From: a virus
Lineage: Duplodnaviria > Caudoviricetes
IMG/VR virus record: IMGVR_UViG_2744054452_000001
Span: 16,516 to 80,515 of that record
Strand: one strand, 5' to 3'
Length of the DNA stretch: 64,000 nt
This document shows, piece by piece, positions 42,400 through 52,707 of the stretch. The translations under genes were made by a program, and so were the position numbers. The notes below the pieces were generated by a model. That model worked only from the letters and a program-made list of their open reading frames with translations, was not told the origin of the DNA and did no database searches. Positions within the stretch are counted from its first letter, which is position 1. Every line of letters starts with the position of its first letter.

Positions 42400-43083
42400 T
42401 CAGGAAAGGGCCGCGACGCGCTCTGCATCGCGGTTGAATACATCGACGGTCAGCTTTTCACGAAAGCGCTTGGTGATGCACAGATCAGGCGCCAGGTCAT
42501 CGACCATGTCGGTGTGGGTTGTGGCCACCAGCAGCGTGGCACCGACCTGGCGGGCCATCTTTTGCATGGTGTAGGCGACGACCTTGGCGGCCGTGCGGTC
42601 AAGGATGGCCAGGAATTCGTCGGCAGCCCAGACTTGAGCGCCGGTCTCGATGGCCTTTGCCAGCCGGAAGCGGTAGCGCTGGCCGTCCGACAGCTCGGAG
42701 GGGCGACGGCAGTACAGGTAGGCGTCTTGAATGCCGGCCACGCCCAGCAGGCGAATGGCGTCCTTGGCATCTTTGCCAATTTGGTCGATCAGGGGCTCGT
42801 CGGTGAAGGAAATCGAGTCCAGGTTGATGACGGAGTCGCCGGCAGCGGCCATCTGGGCTTGCAGCTCGCGCAGCAGCACGGATTTGCCCCCGCCCGACTG
42901 GCCAGTGATGTAAACCACGTCGCCTTGGGCAATCTGCAGCTCTAGGTTGTCGAAAACGACGAATTCCTTGTCATCCAGACCGATGCCAAACGCTTCGGCA
43001 ATGGTCAGCACACGGTCAGAGCGCTGGATGCGCGTCATAAAGCGCTTGTCGATCTTGTAGGTGCGTCGCACGGGGGCGTTCAT
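42400..43083 (-). CDS. stand-alone ABC-family ATPase
   Basis: GQSGGGKS Walker A, LSDGQ signature, AADEF Walker B, ATTH H-loop; ATG at 43083; no permease gene nearby. Confidence 0.88.
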   Translation of the reverse strand: MNAPVRRTYKIDKRFMTRIQRSDRVLTIAEAFGIGLDDKEFVVFDNLELQIAQGDVVYITGQSGGGKSVLLRELQAQMAAAGDSVINLDSISFTDEPLIDQIGKDAKDAIRLLGVAGIQDAYLYCRRPSELSDGQRYRFRLAKAIETGAQVWAADEFLAILDRTAAKVVAYTMQKMARQVGATLLVATTHTDMVDDLAPDLCITKRFREKLTVDVFNRDAERVAALS

Positions 43084-43733
43084 GCTGTCTCCTTCTCGGT
43101 GAGCTCTTGAACCCATTTGCTGAACGCAGCCGCACCGGTCTCCCCGGTCGTCTTCTCTGCGATCGCCAGCATCTTTGCGATACCCCGGGCGGTGTCGGTG
43201 GGCACGTCCTTGAATCCGAAGGCGCGCGCAAGAGTGACGCGTGCCTCTGCAGCTGCAGCTGTACGCTTTGTCAGCTCTGCTTCCTGCTCCTGCAGCACGT
43301 CGTCCATGTCCTCCATGAACGCGCTGGTGTCGATGGCGCCCAGGTCGGCCGTGCCAAAGTCCAGCTCCTTGGCATCAAAGATGCCGCCCAGCAGCTCGGT
43401 GTTGAATTCAGCCAGGTCAGCGGTCAGCTTCTGGGTGTCCAGATCACCGATAGCCACGCGGTTGTCTGCGAGGCGGGCGGCCTTGACCTGGTCGGGGGTG
43501 AGGTCGTAGCGCACCAGCACCAGAACCTCGGTCATGCCGAGCTCCAGGCATGCCAGGCGACGGCCATGGCCCTTGATGATGACGCCGAACTGGTCAACAA
43601 CGATCGGCTGGTCAAAGCCGAAGCGCTGGATCGACGCGGCAATTGCCTTTACCTGTGCCTTGTCGTGCTTTTTGGCATTCAGCTCATACGGAATGAGCGC
43701 GTGAATGTCCCATTTTTCAATCTTGCTATCCAC
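43080..43733 (-). CDS. ParB/Srx N-terminal-domain protein 2
   Basis: L.PY..NA.KH...I..FGF.QPIVVD...II.GHGR..A...ADNR; GTG start at 43733. Confidence 0.85.
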   Translation of the reverse strand: MDSKIEKWDIHALIPYELNAKKHDKAQVKAIAASIQRFGFDQPIVVDQFGVIIKGHGRRLACLELGMTEVLVLVRYDLTPDQVKAARLADNRVAIGDLDTQKLTADLAEFNTELLGGIFDAKELDFGTADLGAIDTSAFMEDMDDVLQEQEAELTKRTAAAAEARVTLARAFGFKDVPTDTARGIAKMLAIAEKTTGETGAAAFSKWVQELTEKETA

Positions 43734-43756
43734 TTTTCTTCTTCTTCTGTGGGTGA

Positions 43757-43897
43757 TTACTTGACGCGGGCGAGGATGACTCCGGCACTCTTTGCGCCAA
43801 GGTAAGCCTTGACCGTGTCGATGGCTGCCGCGTGGTCGTCTGTCTTCACGTCGAACTTGGAGACCTTGCCGCTCTTGTCCTTGAAGTACACGCGCAT
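43757..43897 (-). CDS. 46-aa hypothetical protein (below ORF-track cutoff)
   Basis: MRVYFKDKSGKVSKFDVKTDDHAAAIDTVKAYLGAKSAGVILARVK; GGAG RBS; fills the gap between the two ParB genes. Confidence 0.65.
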   Translation of the reverse strand: MRVYFKDKSGKVSKFDVKTDDHAAAIDTVKAYLGAKSAGVILARVK

Positions 43898-43899
43898 GG

Positions 43900-44577
43900 T
43901 TACTCCAGCCCCAGGTTGGACTTCGCGGCGTTGGCCACCTCCACCAGGGCCATGCCGGCGGCAACCAGGCTGTCTTCTTCCTTGTCGAAGCCACGGGCAA
44001 CGATGAGCTTCTTGATGAGCTTTTCGACCGCCTCGCGGTCTTGGACGGGCACCTTGAAGCGCATCAGCTCGGTCAGCTTGACCGGGCGCTCGGCGGGTGC
44101 AGGAGTCACGTCATCCAGCGGGTCAACGTCAGCATCGAAGCCGATCTTCGACAGGTCGATCTCGTCAACGGCCTTGAACATGCCGGCCAGCTCGTCCTCC
44201 GTGTACGGCAGCATGGCAGCAACGTCTTCCATGCCAATGTCCTGCAGCACGGAGTTCAGGCGGGTCACGTCATCAATGCCGTAGCCGCCGTTGTCAGCAA
44301 GGCCGATCAGCTTGGCCTGCTTGTCATCAATCTTGCCCAGGCAGATGACAGGCACTTGCTCATGGCCGAGGTCTTTTGCGGCCCGCCAGCGGTGCTCACC
44401 ACCTAGAATCTGAAAAGTGCCGTCATCCAGCTCACGCACGATGATCGGCTTGTAAAAATTGAGTTGCTTGAGCGAATTGCGCAAGCGCCCCTCCATTTCA
44501 GGAGAGACAACATTGGAGTTCCATGGGTTCGGGCGCAGGTGCCCCGTTGGAACGTAGATGATTTTCAGTTGATCCAC
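43900..44577 (-). CDS. ParB/Srx N-terminal-domain protein 1
   Basis: LRPNPWN.N...PIIVR.....FQILGGEHRWRAA...ADN. Confidence 0.88.
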   Translation of the reverse strand: MDQLKIIYVPTGHLRPNPWNSNVVSPEMEGRLRNSLKQLNFYKPIIVRELDDGTFQILGGEHRWRAAKDLGHEQVPVICLGKIDDKQAKLIGLADNGGYGIDDVTRLNSVLQDIGMEDVAAMLPYTEDELAGMFKAVDEIDLSKIGFDADVDPLDDVTPAPAERPVKLTELMRFKVPVQDREAVEKLIKKLIVARGFDKEEDSLVAAGMALVEVANAAKSNLGLE

Positions 44578-48237: not shown

Positions 48238-48500
48238 GCGTTTGTGCCAGGCCTGGCCAGGGCTCGGCTGTATAAGGCGCTGGATACAGGATCAGGCTGG
48301 CCAGGATTTTGGATCCACTGTGCAGGTGTGCGTGTGCCATGGTGGACGGTGCTGTGTGCAGCGTGCCGGCGTGCTTGTGCCAGGTATAAGGCACATGGGA
48401 ATTGCCAGCCATGGAAAAACGGCGTCAAGGGCCACCCACCCCGAGCGAACCCGCATAAGGGGTACAAGGTCGGGGCGAGGGGTTTCCCCCTCTTGTCGGT

Positions 48501-48869
48501 TTAGACCACCTCATTACCCGCGCTTGTCAGCAGGGGCAATGCATTGCATTCAAACCATTGCACCATTGCAAGGGCTAGTTGCGCTTGCTGCATGAGAGGG
48601 GCGCATTCTGCATTGTCAGTATGTATCGAGCTATCCCATGCAATGGTCGTTTCTTCTGGGTCGATCAGTTGCAGGGTAATAGACCCGGTTGCATAGTCGC
48701 GGTTCACATCAAACCCGATAGTGAGGGTTTGTGCTTCATGGTCTTGAGTCACGGTCACGTCATAGCAAACACCGGGCAGCAATTGCGGGTTTTGCTGGGT
48801 CAGGGCTTCGAGTGCTTGCGCTGCTGTGGTGAGTGCTTGTGCTGCTGTGGTCATGTTGATAGCTTTCAA
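48501..48869 (-). CDS. hypothetical early protein
   Basis: ORF in the motif-free zone; start may be ATG 48854. Confidence 0.65.
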   Translation of the reverse strand: MKAINMTTAAQALTTAAQALEALTQQNPQLLPGVCYDVTVTQDHEAQTLTIGFDVNRDYATGSITLQLIDPEETTIAWDSSIHTDNAECAPLMQQAQLALAMVQWFECNALPLLTSAGNEVV

Positions 48870-48924
48870 AAAGGGGGCTCAGTGCGCCCCTGCGCAGTGC
48901 AGGGGCAAGGGTCAGGGGTGAGGG

Positions 48925-49188
48925 TTACAGCGCAGCGCGTGCGCGTTGCAATGCTTTGAATTGAGCGCGGGTCATAGTGCCCCCTTGTGGGGGCATGGTG
49001 GGCGCTTGTGGTGCGCGGGCTTCATCGTCTGCCCAGCGTGCCCACGGTTTGCGGGCTGCGCTTGCTTGCATGAGTTCTAGGGCTTCGGTCTGAAACACGA
49101 ACCCAGCACGGGGCGCGCTGGGCATGTGACCCGTAGTCCCATTGGTGCGATACATAACCCCATCGTCGTCATACTTGATAACTGTCAT
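48925..49188 (-). CDS. hypothetical early protein
   Basis: ATGA overlap with the upstream ORF. Confidence 0.6.
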   Translation of the reverse strand: MTVIKYDDDGVMYRTNGTTGHMPSAPRAGFVFQTEALELMQASAARKPWARWADDEARAPQAPTMPPQGGTMTRAQFKALQRARAAL

Positions 49189-49388
49189 TTCGCGCCCCTT
49201 GCATTGAAACGGTTTTGCATGGTGCTAGGTGCTTTGATAACCATCACGATACTGACAAAGAACGCTGCAAGCTGAATGCAGAGTGCAGTGTCTCGCGTAA
49301 TGTGCCCTGCGATATTGAGGGCGATAGAGAGCACGGGGGCAATGATGCTAATCATCATTGCAAGAATTTCGGTTTGGTTCTTATTCAT
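49185..49388 (-). CDS. small 2-TM membrane protein
   Basis: Two hydrophobic helices. Confidence 0.6.
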   Translation of the reverse strand: MNKNQTEILAMMISIIAPVLSIALNIAGHITRDTALCIQLAAFFVSIVMVIKAPSTMQNRFNARGAK

Positions 49389-49448
49389 GTTCGCTATGCA
49401 CGGGGGTTCTTAGCCCCCTGCATAAGTAAGTCAGTTCTGAGTTATCAA

Positions 49449-50183
49449 TTAAGCAAACATTGCTTCGATCTGACCGGGAGTTGCACGCCCCATCAATTCA
49501 AGAAACGCGACAGTCATAGGGTGCGCGCGGTTGATGGTGTACGCTGCATTCTTGCCCTTGCCCACTGCATGCACTGCCCCGCAGACTTGCAAGAATCCCG
49601 ACTTCCCTACACTGCGGGAAATTTGCGTGGGCATGGTGCCCTTGTCGATCTGGGCGAGTTTTGCGCGAATCGCAGAGCGGGCAACGCCCCGAGTGTCTGC
49701 GCTCATTCCCTCGTTTTTCACTGCCCCCGTGCCCAGATACAGCAAAGCATCGTTTTGCAGGGGTTTACCGTCTGCATAGTCAAGCGCGAGCAAAATAACT
49801 GCGCTTGTCTTGTCGATGCTTTCCCACTTCGGGACAGGTGCGCTAATTGCGCCCAGAAACTGATTAAAACGCTTGATAGCTTTCATGGGCGCCCCGGTGC
49901 AGTAAATGCGCGAGGTGTCAATTTTGAGCTTTTCAATCGCGTTATCTAACTCTTGAGTCAGTGCGAACGGGCTAGAAGTGTCACCGCTGATAATGCGCTG
50001 CATGTCTTCGCTGCCCTCGACCGTGATCCCCGTATCAGGGTCAATAAATGCCCATGTGCGGGAATCGTTGAAAATCGCTGCATAGCGGGTTTTGAATGTT
50101 TCGGTCTTGCCCTCTGTATTGCGAGCGAAAATTTCTTCGCGTTGCTGGGCAGTCAGAACCGTGGTCTTGTCGAATTTTGTCAT
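49449..50183 (-). CDS. hypothetical early protein (244 aa)
   Basis: AAAGGGA RBS; first gene downstream of the AT-rich promoter block. Confidence 0.75.
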   Translation of the reverse strand: MTKFDKTTVLTAQQREEIFARNTEGKTETFKTRYAAIFNDSRTWAFIDPDTGITVEGSEDMQRIISGDTSSPFALTQELDNAIEKLKIDTSRIYCTGAPMKAIKRFNQFLGAISAPVPKWESIDKTSAVILLALDYADGKPLQNDALLYLGTGAVKNEGMSADTRGVARSAIRAKLAQIDKGTMPTQISRSVGKSGFLQVCGAVHAVGKGKNAAYTINRAHPMTVAFLELMGRATPGQIEAMFA

Positions 50184-50315
50184 TTTGAATCCCTTTAGGT
50201 TGATTAGGTTTGATTTACATGCGCCCTATGGTGAGCGCTATGTGATTAGAGACAGTCAGATTTTTAATGAACTGCCCCTAGGGGCTATGCTGTACTGCGA
50301 TCAGTGCAGCATGTT

Positions 50316-50530
50316 TGCATTGTAGCAGAGTTTTTTCTAGTAAATACAAAAATAATTATTTTTTGTGTTTACAGCTAAAACCCGCTGTATGCATCGCAGT
50401 GCTTGCTTGTGAGCATGTTTCGCTGCGATGGGGTCAATTATGCACCAATTTTTTAGGTATCCCGAGAAAAATTAGATAAATAATTATTTTTTGTTTTTTC
50501 GTGTATCCCAGCAAAAACTAAGCTATACTG
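50316..50530. promoter_or_regulatory. AT-rich divergent sigma70-type promoter block
   Basis: Minus-strand extended -10 TGCTACAAT (50319-50327); plus-strand TATACT (50524-50529); two AATAATTATTTTTTGT UP-like tracts. Confidence 0.55.
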
Positions 50531-51899: not shown

Positions 51900-51990
51900 G
51901 GTTTTTATTGTCAGTTCTGACTTACGGATTGGGGCGCATTGTACTCAACTCTGACTTACACACGATCCATGTTTGCCACACGTCGCAGAC

Positions 51991-52392
51991 TCAGTTCCTG
52001 GGCATGTGCTTCTCAATCACATAGGTGCTCAATGCGTCCATCACATCTTCGTCACCCGGGACTGCCAGTGACTTCTCGCACGATTGCCATTCCTTGAGTG
52101 AACCACGGTGACGCAACAAGCCCGGGCCGCCCCACTCGCGCTCCTGGTCATCGTGGTCGATGTAGATCCAGTCATAGTCCTCATCGAGCCCTTCTGGGCC
52201 ATCGAGCATTGCATCGAGACTGATGAGACCGCTTGATGCGGCAACCAATGCTCCGCCCTCGGCGGTTGTGATGGCGGTGTACGTTCCCTGGTAGGAGCTC
52301 ACGCGCTCTTCCGCCAGGAAGTACGAGATCACGGTTTGGGTGCCGCGCCCCGAGTCATTCATGGTCAGTGAGTCGCAATAGATTTGTTTCAT
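51991..52392 (-). CDS. hypothetical acidic protein
   Basis: 133-aa ORF with typical codon usage. Confidence 0.6.
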   Translation of the reverse strand: MKQIYCDSLTMNDSGRGTQTVISYFLAEERVSSYQGTYTAITTAEGGALVAASSGLISLDAMLDGPEGLDEDYDWIYIDHDDQEREWGGPGLLRHRGSLKEWQSCEKSLAVPGDEDVMDALSTYVIEKHMPRN

Positions 52393-52707
52393 GCCCGGTA
52401 TTGTCAGACAGGGTCACGGCTGGGTCGGGGGATATGCTCTGCACGCTCCACTCCCCATGGGTGATACGCGGGCACGCCCGAACATATAAAAGCGCATGGG
52501 CGCGCGCCCGCACGAATCTCACCACCTTATAGGAAGCTCACAGGTATAAGGTAGTTGCTGGCGCCCTATAAGCCACAATGGATCTGCCCTATAAGGTAGT
52601 GCTGGATTCTTGGCTTATACGTGGAGCGGGTCTGCCATGGTGGACGTGGTGCCGCGATCCAGGTTGGATGCCGGCCGCGCTGGACTCAGGAGCTGTCCAT
52701 GACCCGT

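What the first reader, a model, noticed from the sequence alone, without database searches (positions are those of the whole stretch)
48435..50529. A 2.1-kb zone free of [ACT]GG[AC] / [GT]CC[AGT] on both strands
Seen: reading 48435-50529 base by base, every GGA or GGC is preceded by G, every isolated GG is followed by T, and every TCC or GCC is followed by C. The 12 tetramers AGGA, AGGC, CGGA, CGGC, TGGA, TGGC and their complements never occur. At uniform composition about 2090x12/256, or ~98, would be expected. GATC, CCGG and GAAC are still present, so this is not general palindrome avoidance. The left edge is abrupt (last site GCCA at 48431), and the zone covers four ORFs plus their promoters. 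Inference: this is the first-injected or immediate-early DNA. It either lacks the target of the phage's own bulky virion-DNA modification, so host RNA polymerase can read it, or evades a host system that recognises this degenerate motif. T5's site-depleted first-step-transfer DNA is the known analogy; I know no described system with this motif.
Basis: partly seen in the sequence, partly recalled or inferred. Interest (0 to 1): 0.92.

Follow-up and report, generated by a model that had tools for sequence, protein, structure and literature searches.

The report
GG-motif-free early phage gene cassette
One small gene cassette in this phage and in many of its relatives is kept completely free of a short GG/CC-centred DNA word that is common everywhere else in their genomes, which points to an unknown DNA-targeting activity that this cassette must escape.

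Summary
Window 48435-50529 has 0 HGGM/KCCD sites. About 130 are expected, the next-largest gap in the 80.5-kb record is 152 bp, and synonymous shuffles give 46.6±4.7 sites.

The zone is one minus-strand transcription unit, from upstream region to terminator hairpin. It is built around a 244-aa protein of an unnamed family.

The same trait recurs in relatives:
- 38 of 80 IMG/VR loci have such a stretch downstream of the helicase.
- Four GenBank Nickievirus genomes have 1083-1137 bp with no GG or CC at all.

The core is GG/CC, and the tolerated flanking context differs by lineage. Selection is strong enough that the protein has no Gly, Pro or Trp in some lineages. Five loci (four distinct sequences; L032 and L033 gave identical values) carry one depleted and one normal paralogue, so the constraint lies on the DNA locus and not on the protein.

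T5's first 30 kb shows nothing similar. No methylase or transglycosylase was found. The ParB-ABC cluster occurs in every relative where the fetched DNA reached it, whatever the zone status.

Best reading: motif avoidance shields an autonomous early cassette from a GG-directed DNA-level activity, probably phage-encoded. The effector, the timing and the first-injection idea are untested. My searches found no description of this.

The parts
48435..50529 (.). Zone free of HGGM/KCCD on both strands (2095 bp between the last base of GCCA at 48431-48434 and GCCT at 50530)
49449..50183 (-). Core gene: 244-aa protein of an unnamed family. It has a nearly invariant T-x-x-T-Q-x-S stretch (T183, T186, Q187, S189). 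The C-terminal half resembles a winged helix.
   Evidence: family; 512 clusters at E<=1e-3; model pLDDT 79.4, best VIA Z 5.7 to MarR/ArsR-type chains, which is weak; no Pfam, PHROG or PADLOC match.
49185..49388 (-). 67-aa ORF that looks like a small membrane protein by eye. Its stop overlaps the start of the next ORF.
   Evidence: translation; only a sub-threshold Pfam match to a membrane-helix model.
48925..49188 (-). 87-aa ORF with no family match
48874..48890 (-). Terminator-like hairpin followed by a T run, directly after the 87-aa ORF
48501..48869 (-). 122-aa accessory ORF. It is absent from the ~98%-identical variant in runs X1 and X2, which skips 48482-48886. It is also motif-free.
   Evidence: joint 48481/48887 in 2 of 4 runs; weak phrog_10382 match, E 9.4e-4.
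48477..48492 (-). G/C hairpin at the far end of the unit. The zone ends about 45 bp beyond it.
   Evidence: sequence; fold
50184..50529 (-). A+T-rich upstream region of the unit. It holds two copies of a 29-nt element with a palindromic core (50342-50370 and 50470-50498). I read -10-like hexamers on the minus strand by eye.
   Evidence: repeat D1, inverted repeat I6; sequence. The consensus promoter scan found none.

Best explanation
The zone is a self-contained expression cassette: an A+T-rich upstream region, a conserved DNA-binding-type gene, variable small ORFs and a terminator. Purifying selection keeps it free of a GG/CC-centred recognition word on both strands. The selection acts on synonymous, non-synonymous and non-coding positions. 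In this lineage the word is HGGM.

The most likely reason is that a sequence-specific, DNA-level activity hits that word, by cutting, nicking, modifying or blocking it. A single hit inside the unit would stop the cassette from being expressed. The rest of the genome carries the word at the normal rate, so it must tolerate or recover from the same activity, or not be exposed to it yet.

I infer two further points. First, the activity belongs to the phage lineage rather than to one host, because the GG core is kept across hundreds of diverged family members. Second, the cassette is the first thing host RNA polymerase must read after infection.

Shown: the absence, its selection, its conservation, its tie to one gene family, and its locus-specific nature.

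Inferred: that it acts on DNA, that one hit suffices, the early timing, and the phage origin of the activity.
For: Absence and nulls.

Conservation in relatives:
- 38 of 80 helicase-anchored IMG/VR loci have a stretch with at least 12 sites expected and none seen.
- 15 of the 36 loci with at least 8 kb downstream of the helicase have at least 25 expected and none seen.
- All four Nickievirus genomes examined have 1083-1137 bp without any GG/CC, against about 104-119 per kb overall. Their zones differ from each other at 15-40% of positions.

Lineage-specific tolerated contexts, with GGC/GCC outside G runs essentially never tolerated (2 AGGC in the L013 zone).

Non-coding DNA is included. The zone runs from the upstream region to about 45 bp past the end hairpin. 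In phage nickie it runs from about 30 bp upstream of the promoter-like hexamers to just past a hairpin (read by eye).

Protein-level imprint:
- 0 Gly, Pro or Trp in 183-224 residues in 5 of 22 zone proteins tabulated.
- The median G+P+W content of the 150 best family representatives is 5.7%, against 13.1% for 120 helicases of the same phages.
- Met followed by Ala, Asp or Glu occurs at 17 of 860 Met against 461 of 2241. Trp followed by a residue whose codon must start with A or C occurs at 6 of 67 against 163 of 407.

Internal control: in 5 loci (L032 and L033 gave identical values, so 4 distinct cases) one paralogue is depleted and the other, 1.5-3 kb away, is normal. In L044 the counts are 0 against 60 HGGM. 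The L058 pair is 59% identical.

Close variants: of the 29 variant positions inside the zone among the 40 rows listed (237 more not shown) for ~98%-identical metagenome copies, only one creates a site (48450, at the edge). About 4.3 would be expected.

Precedent for the logic: the abstracts of PMC10644984 and PMC12455610 report that motifs matter only in the first-entering DNA.
Against: No effector was identified. There is no methylase or TGT in the record, which is only 71% complete. The ParB-ABC cluster does not track the zone.

No data exist on timing of expression or on genome termini. No RNA run is listed.

Some family members are only partly depleted or not depleted: L005 38 sites against 52 expected, L076 42 against 69, L063 25 against 52, L064 25 against 54.

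No zone was found in the 46,037 of 109,117 bases of phage BUCTxx99 that I scanned.

A homologue sits in a 450-kb Paraburkholderia MAG contig with 4 sites in and around the gene against about 55 expected. The element can therefore reside in a cell with all its other sites intact.

Contig depth is the same inside and outside the zone. This gives no sign of a sequencing-impeding modification outside it.

How the other early genes, which carry the word, would be expressed is unexplained.
Confidence: 0.5

Rival explanations
1. Leading-region restriction avoidance against a host nuclease, of the T5/BF23 or Murciavirus type. The cassette enters first and must be free of the target of a host defence. 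Its product then protects the DNA that follows.
For: The principle is documented in the abstracts of PMC10644984 and PMC12455610. Nican01 is listed as 'DTR (long)'. The rest of the genome is not depleted, as in T5-like phages.
Against: I know of no host system with a 2-4-bp GG word (recall, plus searches). DarT1, which acts on guanine, has no consensus motif (passages of PMC11543638). The same core is kept in relatives whose G+C content ranges from 46 to 61% and in 512 protein clusters. This argues against any single host's enzyme. The position of the termini is unknown. T5 itself shows no such word-free stretch.
Confidence: 0.2
2. Self-immunity to a nuclease that the phage itself deploys against host DNA. 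The cassette must keep working while GG-bearing DNA in the cell is being destroyed, and the remaining phage DNA is absent or shielded at that time.
For: In T5, how phage DNA escapes the A1-driven degradation is stated to be unknown (section 19 of bioRxiv 10.64898/2026.04.02.716235). A word-free cassette would be one solution. The phage encodes a ligase. Nickie is annotated with recombination and nuclease-inhibitor genes.
Against: No candidate nuclease was identified. The core protein's model is helical with a weak winged-helix match and no nuclease match. Prophage-like residence of the element needs the activity to be tightly off.
Confidence: 0.12
3. CRISPR PAM avoidance. The cassette cannot be targeted because it lacks the CC/GG PAM of type I-F or similar systems.
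For: In the Nickievirus genomes and L044 the cassette has no GG/CC at all. Genome-wide mild depletion of the I-F PAM in Pseudomonas phages is published (PMC12174588, passages read).
Against: The window's zone has 257 GG/CC against 277 expected, so a CC PAM is not avoided here. Tolerated contexts such as HGGT only or HGGA only do not match any PAM that I recall. Every other part of the genome remains targetable.
Confidence: 0.04
4. No selection on a motif. The zone would be a recently acquired foreign segment, a mutational bias, or a side effect of the protein's amino-acid needs.
For: G+C is lower in the zone (0.46-0.54 against about 0.60). Codon usage differs.
Against: Shuffling the zone's own codons still gives 46.6±4.7 sites. 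The non-coding parts are also free. The gene is syntenic and vertically conserved. Paralogues of the same family are encoded with normal GG content. Orthologous zones 15-40% diverged all stay free.
Confidence: 0.03

Closest known systems
First-step-transfer / terminal-repeat DNA of T5-like phages (T5, BF23)
   Same: A small early-acting part of the genome must be free of restriction targets, while sites elsewhere do not matter (abstract of PMC10644984). The early DNA coexists with massive DNA degradation, and how it survives is unknown.
   Different: T5's first 30 kb shows no stretch free of any 2-4-letter word (best score 14.9). The FST is about 10 kb with 17 genes, and the motifs concerned are ordinary 4-8-bp restriction sites. 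Here the zone is 1-2 kb, holds one conserved gene, and avoids a GG/CC core at near-dinucleotide level. No homology to A1 or A2 was sought or found, and two-step entry is untested.
Leading-region Type I R-M motif avoidance in Murciavirus (Autographiviridae)
   Same: The position of a motif in the first-injected region decides sensitivity. The leading region is variable and anti-defence-rich (abstract of PMC12455610).
   Different: That case involves one host's Type I motif and a few sites that escape mutants lose. Here roughly 40 to 130 expected sites per zone are purged, and the trait is conserved across a large phage family.
Sequence-context-specific phage DNA modification (Mom of Mu; DpdA 7-deazaguanine systems; CCD-specific chlorella-virus methylase and nickase), all recalled and not from any call
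   Same: These enzymes have short degenerate recognition words of 2-5 bp at very high site density. This is the only class of enzymes I know with words as short as HGGM.
   Different: No TGT/DpdA or methylase was found here. No GNAT/Mom-like match was found for the 359-aa protein. No exempt region is described for those systems, as far as I recall.
Genome-wide restriction-site or PAM depletion in phages
   Same: Selection removes short recognition words from phage DNA (PMC12174588, which cites Kupczok & Bollback 2014 and Rocha 2001 in its reference list).
   Different: Those effects are mild, statistical and genome-wide. Here the depletion is absolute and local, and it overrides amino-acid composition.

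Membership tests
T5-type first-step-transfer / leading-region site avoidance | The segment is the first DNA to enter the cell (at a terminus or in a terminal repeat) | not testable with these tools
   The record is a linear 71%-complete fragment. Only contigs were laid, so no read ends are visible. Nican01 is listed as 'DTR (long)' without a position, and the paper's supplements are closed.
T5-type first-step-transfer / leading-region site avoidance | The segment is free of the target word while the rest of the genome carries it | tested here: met
   0 sites against about 130 expected in the zone, and 61.4 per kb elsewhere
T5-type first-step-transfer / leading-region site avoidance | The segment encodes functions that protect or admit the remaining DNA | not tested
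   The four ORFs have no named family
   PF01702, PF00145 and PF01555 gave 0 matches in a 71%-complete record. The ParB proteins match only the ParB-like N-terminal part of PADLOC MTase_II models. The ParB-ABC cluster is present whatever the zone status.
   No raw reads or kinetic data are available. Contig depth is equal inside and outside the zone, which says little.
CRISPR PAM-free target | Absence of the PAM dinucleotide on both strands | tested here: not met
   The window zone has 257 GG/CC against 277 expected. The feature is met only in the Nickievirus genomes and L044.
Winged-helix / HTH DNA-binding proteins (for the 244-aa core protein) | A recognisable wHTH fold | tested here: inconclusive
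   The model has pLDDT 79.4. Foldseek found no match at E<=0.001 in the PDB or BFVD libraries. The VIA wide search gave Z 5.0-5.7 to MarR/ArsR/PadR chains over residues ~107-241, below the level the tool calls reliable.

The most novel reading that the evidence does not exclude
A widespread family of ~100-115-kb siphophages, the Nickievirus genus and its relatives, carries a lineage-encoded activity directed at GG/CC words. The activity could be modification, nicking or silencing of DNA. It would leave the incoming genome unreadable or vulnerable everywhere except in a 1-2-kb word-free 'ignition cassette'. The conserved T-x-x-T-Q-x-S protein of that cassette would then unlock the rest of the genome. 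The cassette's DNA constraint is strong enough to have removed Gly, Pro and Trp from the protein.
Probability: 0.3. Interest if true: 0.95.

Novelty: new variant of a known kind. Interest (0 to 1): 0.9.

Why it matters
Three reasons.

1. This is an unusually clean natural signal of selection on DNA words. Roughly 40 to 130 expected sites per zone are reduced to zero, across many diverged phages. The selection is strong enough to dictate which amino acids a protein may contain. A signal like this usually marks an enzyme–target relationship, and none is known with a GG-core word this short.

2. It makes an open question testable. How early phage DNA survives the destruction or blockade that accompanies takeover is stated as unresolved for T5. 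Here, cultured phages of a laboratory-tractable host carry the trait: nickie, Nican01, ZY21 and hairong, which infect Pseudomonas syringae.

3. The trait gives a sequence-only handle. Stretches free of GG words, and proteins free of Gly, Pro and Trp, can be used to find such cassettes in other viruses.

Tried and rejected
DNA and protein searches of the zone against GenBank phages found nothing. Single-protein locus scans of IMG/VR found nothing. Scans with the three-member alignment A1 found nothing in JGI metagenomes, GTDB genomes or IMG/VR.

I used their protein sequences only. By eye, 0 of their 19 Met are followed by Ala, Asp or Glu.

No RNA holder was listed for the stretch.

Tests that came back negative or uninformative:
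- DarT1 as a GG-directed enzyme: the paper reports no consensus motif.
- The PAM idea: not met in the window.
- Purine–pyrimidine alternation or a general dinucleotide bias: only CC/GG is depleted.
- T5 as a sequence-level precedent: no word-free stretch.
- The ParB-ParB-ABC-p359 cluster as the determinant: present in all relatives compared where the fetched DNA reached it.
- PADLOC: no defence or anti-defence model matched the zone proteins.
- Protein Atlas: feature scores of 0.80-0.81 are at chance level. Structure rows are AbiEi- or ArsR-like at TM<=0.5.
- PDB profile search: the only hit was SPO1 TF1 at E 0.26, which is chance level.
- Papers on Nickievirus (passages read): nothing on DNA modification or restriction.

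In one search, my count of substitutions 'creating GG/CC in the nickie context' is not meaningful, because neighbouring changes co-occur. I rely only on the fact that each diverged zone is itself free.

The many short contigs that hold family members might hint at a repeat or at uneven coverage. Gene length biases that comparison, so I draw nothing from it.

The full genome of phage BUCTxx99 was not scanned: 46,037 of 109,117 bases were. In the loci that showed no family member, the zone may simply lie beyond the 10-kb flank, as it does in nickie.
Full report
**The observation.** A script count over the window finds 4009 HGGM/KCCD sites and one gap of 2099 bp, between the site at 48431 and the site at 50530. 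The next-largest gaps are 152 bp. In the whole 80,515-bp record, of which the window is bases 16516-80515, it is the only such gap. Density elsewhere is 61.4 sites per kb. My own arithmetic (no call) puts that close to what mononucleotide composition predicts. All six tetramer pairs of the motif are at zero against 10-40 expected each. GGCC is also at zero, which the motif almost entirely implies. HGGT, HGGG and GGGM remain (43, 88 and 61). GATC, CCGG and GAAC remain.

Three nulls were run:
- Recoding the four ORFs with the phage's codon usage gives 87.5±6.2 sites.
- Shuffling their own synonymous codons gives 46.6±4.7, with a minimum of 32 in 2000 trials.
- Shuffling the 527 non-coding bases gives 20.7±4.0.

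Zero was observed in all three.

**Anatomy.** The zone holds four ORFs on the minus strand: 244, 67, 87 and 122 aa. Upstream is a 346-bp A+T-rich region with two copies of a 29-nt element that has a palindromic core. A terminator-like hairpin with a T run follows the 87-aa ORF. A G/C hairpin lies at 48477-48492, and the zone ends about 45 bp beyond it. The zone therefore matches one transcription unit plus its control region. The consensus promoter scan found nothing, so the -10-like hexamers are my reading.

Copies that are ~98% identical occur in contigs of four runs from two studies. In two of those runs the 122-aa ORF is missing, with a joint at 48481/48887. Forty of 277 variant rows were listed, and 29 of those lie in the zone. 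Only one creates a site, at 48450, which is 15 bp inside the left edge. About 4.3 would be expected from random changes of the same types.

**The genome.** The record is a linear IMG/VR fragment that CheckV puts at 71% complete. It encodes CobS/CobT-like proteins, ParA, an MqsA-like protein, a ligase, a primase, DnaB, Hfq and PhoH. It also has a ParB-ParB-ABC ATPase-thioredoxin cluster next to the terminase genes, and a DEAD-box helicase reading the other way. The helicase is 39-42% identical to those of Stenotrophomonas phage BUCTxx99, Pseudomonas phage nickie, Rhizobium phage RHEph10 and Salmonella phage SSU5. It is 55-81% identical to many metagenomic proteins that sit on contigs of up to ~113 kb.

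**Relatives.** An alignment of 14 helicases brought in 80 IMG/VR loci.
- 38 of the 80 have an HGGM-free stretch where at least 12 sites are expected.
- Of the 36 loci with at least 8 kb downstream of the helicase, 15 have a stretch with at least 25 expected and none seen, and 23 have one with at least 12. These lie mostly 1-6 kb downstream of the helicase.
- Phage nickie has one such stretch in its 112-kb genome, at 103937-105097.
- The orthologous stretches of hairong, Nican01 and ZY21 are free as well.

In these four Nickievirus genomes, 1083-1137 bp contain no GG or CC at all, against about 104-119 per kb overall. Their zones are only 60-85% identical to nickie's.

As a control, the first 30 kb of T5, including its annotated first-step-transfer DNA, has no stretch free of any 2-4-letter word beyond a score of 14.9.

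**The word.** Only the CC/GG step is affected (0.02-0.11 of expectation in the strictest zones). GC and CG rise in compensation. What is tolerated differs by lineage:
- Nothing at all in the Nickievirus genomes and L044.
- Only HGGT in L015, L018, L022 and L027.
- Only HGGA in L068 and L013.
- HGGT plus G runs in the window, L002, L003, L010, L011 and L057.

GGC/GCC outside G runs is almost never tolerated; the only cases seen were 2 AGGC in the L013 zone.

**The gene.** Most zones hold a 190-270-aa ORF on the strand opposite the helicase. BLAST groups these into several clusters. Profile comparison links the two largest clusters (E 1.9e-4, probability 48%) over a stretch with a shared T-x-x-T-Q-x-S motif. 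That motif is nearly invariant in a 23-member alignment.

A profile search of 1.84 billion representatives finds 512 clusters at E<=1e-3 and 202 at E<=1e-10. Nearly all source names are 'hypothetical protein' (two JGI rows carry a 'YqfB (UPF0267 family)' label). No precomputed Pfam domain is attached. Scans of the window's member, and of the 15 members of alignment A4, gave no Pfam match of note. The window's member has no PHROG or PADLOC match either.

An AlphaFold model (pLDDT 79.4) has no Foldseek match. It has weak winged-helix matches over its C-terminal half (Z 5.0-5.7). I therefore call it a probable DNA-binding protein and no more.

**Imprint on the protein.** Gly and Pro codons and the Trp codon all contain GG or CC. 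Accordingly, the zone proteins of the four Nickievirus genomes and of L044 have no Gly, Pro or Trp in 183-224 residues. Other strict lineages use a single Gly codon.

Across the 150 best family representatives, median G+P+W content is 5.7%, and 6 have none. For 120 helicases of the same phages the median is 13.1% and the minimum 11.6%.

Some dipeptides cannot be encoded without HGGM, and these are rare in the family:
- Met followed by Ala, Asp or Glu: 17 of 860 Met, against 461 of 2241 in the helicases.
- Trp followed by a residue whose codon must start with A or C: 6 of 67, against 163 of 407.

Ribosome-binding sequences are bent as well. By eye, the window's core gene is preceded by AAAGGGA rather than an AGGA-type word.

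**Locus, not protein.** A profile search of all fetched loci finds a family member in 37 of 93. Most are strongly depleted. Some are only partly depleted or not at all: L005 has 38 sites against 52 expected, L076 42 against 69, L063 25 against 52, and L064 25 against 54.

Five loci carry two paralogues 1.5-3 kb apart: L032, L033, L044, L050 and L058. L032 and L033 gave identical values, so there are four distinct cases. In each, one copy is depleted and the other is normal. In L044 the counts are 0 against 60 HGGM, and 0 against 22 for Gly plus Pro. In L058 they are 2 against 40 HGGM, and that pair is 59% identical. The family can therefore be encoded in ordinary DNA, and the constraint belongs to the cassette.

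A homologue also lies in a 450-kb contig of a Paraburkholderia MAG. It has 4 sites in and around the gene against about 55 expected.

**What could cause it.** Four features point to a DNA-level cause in which even one site is costly. The constraint covers both strands, all reading frames and non-transcribed upstream DNA. It stops at the ends of the unit. It reaches zero in zone after zone. The rest of each genome is not depleted. That pattern fits a cut, a nick, a blocking adduct or a tightly bound protein at a GG-core word.

The rest of the genome would have to tolerate this activity or avoid it. It might not yet be in the cell. It might be repaired or replicated later. Or the activity might be switched off by then.

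Two published abstracts establish the same principle: motifs matter only in the first-entering DNA. These concern T5-like phages and Murciavirus. A 2026 preprint states that it is unclear how T5 DNA escapes the A1-driven degradation.

I favour a phage-lineage origin of the activity. The GG core is kept across hundreds of diverged clusters and across relatives with 46-61% G+C, while the flanks vary like an evolving specificity. This is inference.

I could not name an effector:
- No TGT, C5 methylase or N4/N6 methylase was found in the record.
- The 359-aa neighbour has no family match.
- The ParB-ParB-ABC-p359 cluster is present in every compared relative whose fetched DNA reached that region, whatever the zone status. 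This includes L058 and L076.

Nican01 is listed as having long direct terminal repeats (Table 2 of PMC11256456). Their position is not given in the text, and the supplements are closed. Contig depth is flat across the zone.

**Rivals.** A host nuclease, on the T5 or Murciavirus model, is possible. It would need a very widespread host enzyme with a word that I cannot find described. DarT1 has no consensus.

Self-immunity to a phage nuclease that destroys host DNA fits the logic, but there is no candidate gene.

PAM avoidance fails in the window, where GG/CC is at 257 against 277 expected.

Foreign origin, mutation bias and protein-composition artefact are contradicted by the synonymous shuffle, the free non-coding DNA, the diverged but still free orthologues, and the paralogue pairs.

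**Novelty.** My literature searches found genome-wide PAM depletion and leading-region restriction avoidance. They found no local cassette free of a GG-core word and no protein stripped of Gly, Pro and Trp by a DNA constraint. The library lacks most subscription journals, so this is not proof of absence.

I file the finding as a new variant of motif avoidance in early DNA. If the effector proves to be a lineage-encoded GG-directed chemistry with an exempt ignition cassette, it would be a new kind of system.

**Verdict.** The mechanism is open. Interest is high.

Noticed in passing
window 48482-48886: Runs X1 and X2 hold a ~98%-identical variant that skips these 405 bp, with 6 other letters at the joint. 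This removes the 122-aa ORF. The deletion starts next to the terminator-like hairpin at 48874-48890, so the ORF looks like an add-on that is nevertheless motif-free.
   Followed up: partly
window 51978-52437: In runs X2 and X3 these 458 bp are replaced by 423 other letters. This looks like a cassette swap among the small early genes.
   Followed up: no
L084 5130-5225 (phage nickie, MG018927 about 105129-105224): Three copies of a C-rich 15-bp direct repeat lie immediately downstream of the GG/CC-free stretch and straddle the start of the next gene. They may be binding sites for the zone protein.
   Followed up: no
L068 14890-16177; L013 17148-17908: These are variant zones in which every GG context except HGGA is absent. 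HGGA occurs 35 and 30 times. This is the mirror image of the lineages that tolerate only HGGT.
   Followed up: yes
L032, L033, L044, L050, L058: These loci hold two paralogues of the zone protein family 1.5-3 kb apart. One is encoded in motif-free DNA and one in ordinary DNA. L032 and L033 gave identical values.
   Followed up: yes
L094 9853-10682 (Paraburkholderia MAG contig, 449,862 bp): A family member sits in a motif-poor stretch inside a very large bacterial contig. This suggests a resident (prophage or plasmid-like) form, or a binning or assembly chimera.
   Followed up: partly
window 50342-50370 and 50470-50498: Two copies of an A+T-rich 29-nt element with a perfectly palindromic 14-nt core lie 128 bp apart in the upstream region of the cassette.
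   Followed up: no
window 43080-44577: The two ParB-N proteins match only the N-terminal ~150 positions of PADLOC 'MTase_II' models, which is the ParB-like part. No methyltransferase domain is present.
   Followed up: partly
whole record (G000): The record is a linear IMG/VR fragment estimated at 71% complete. By synteny with nickie, the missing part would hold the polymerase, recombination and nucleotide-metabolism genes. No second family member is present in the part held.
   Followed up: partly
L084 394-1485 (nickie 100393-101484); Nican01 93533-94663: A ~1.1-kb stretch without annotated genes lies about 2.5 kb upstream of the zone in Nickievirus genomes. It was not examined, and it could relate to the reported long terminal repeat.
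   Followed up: no
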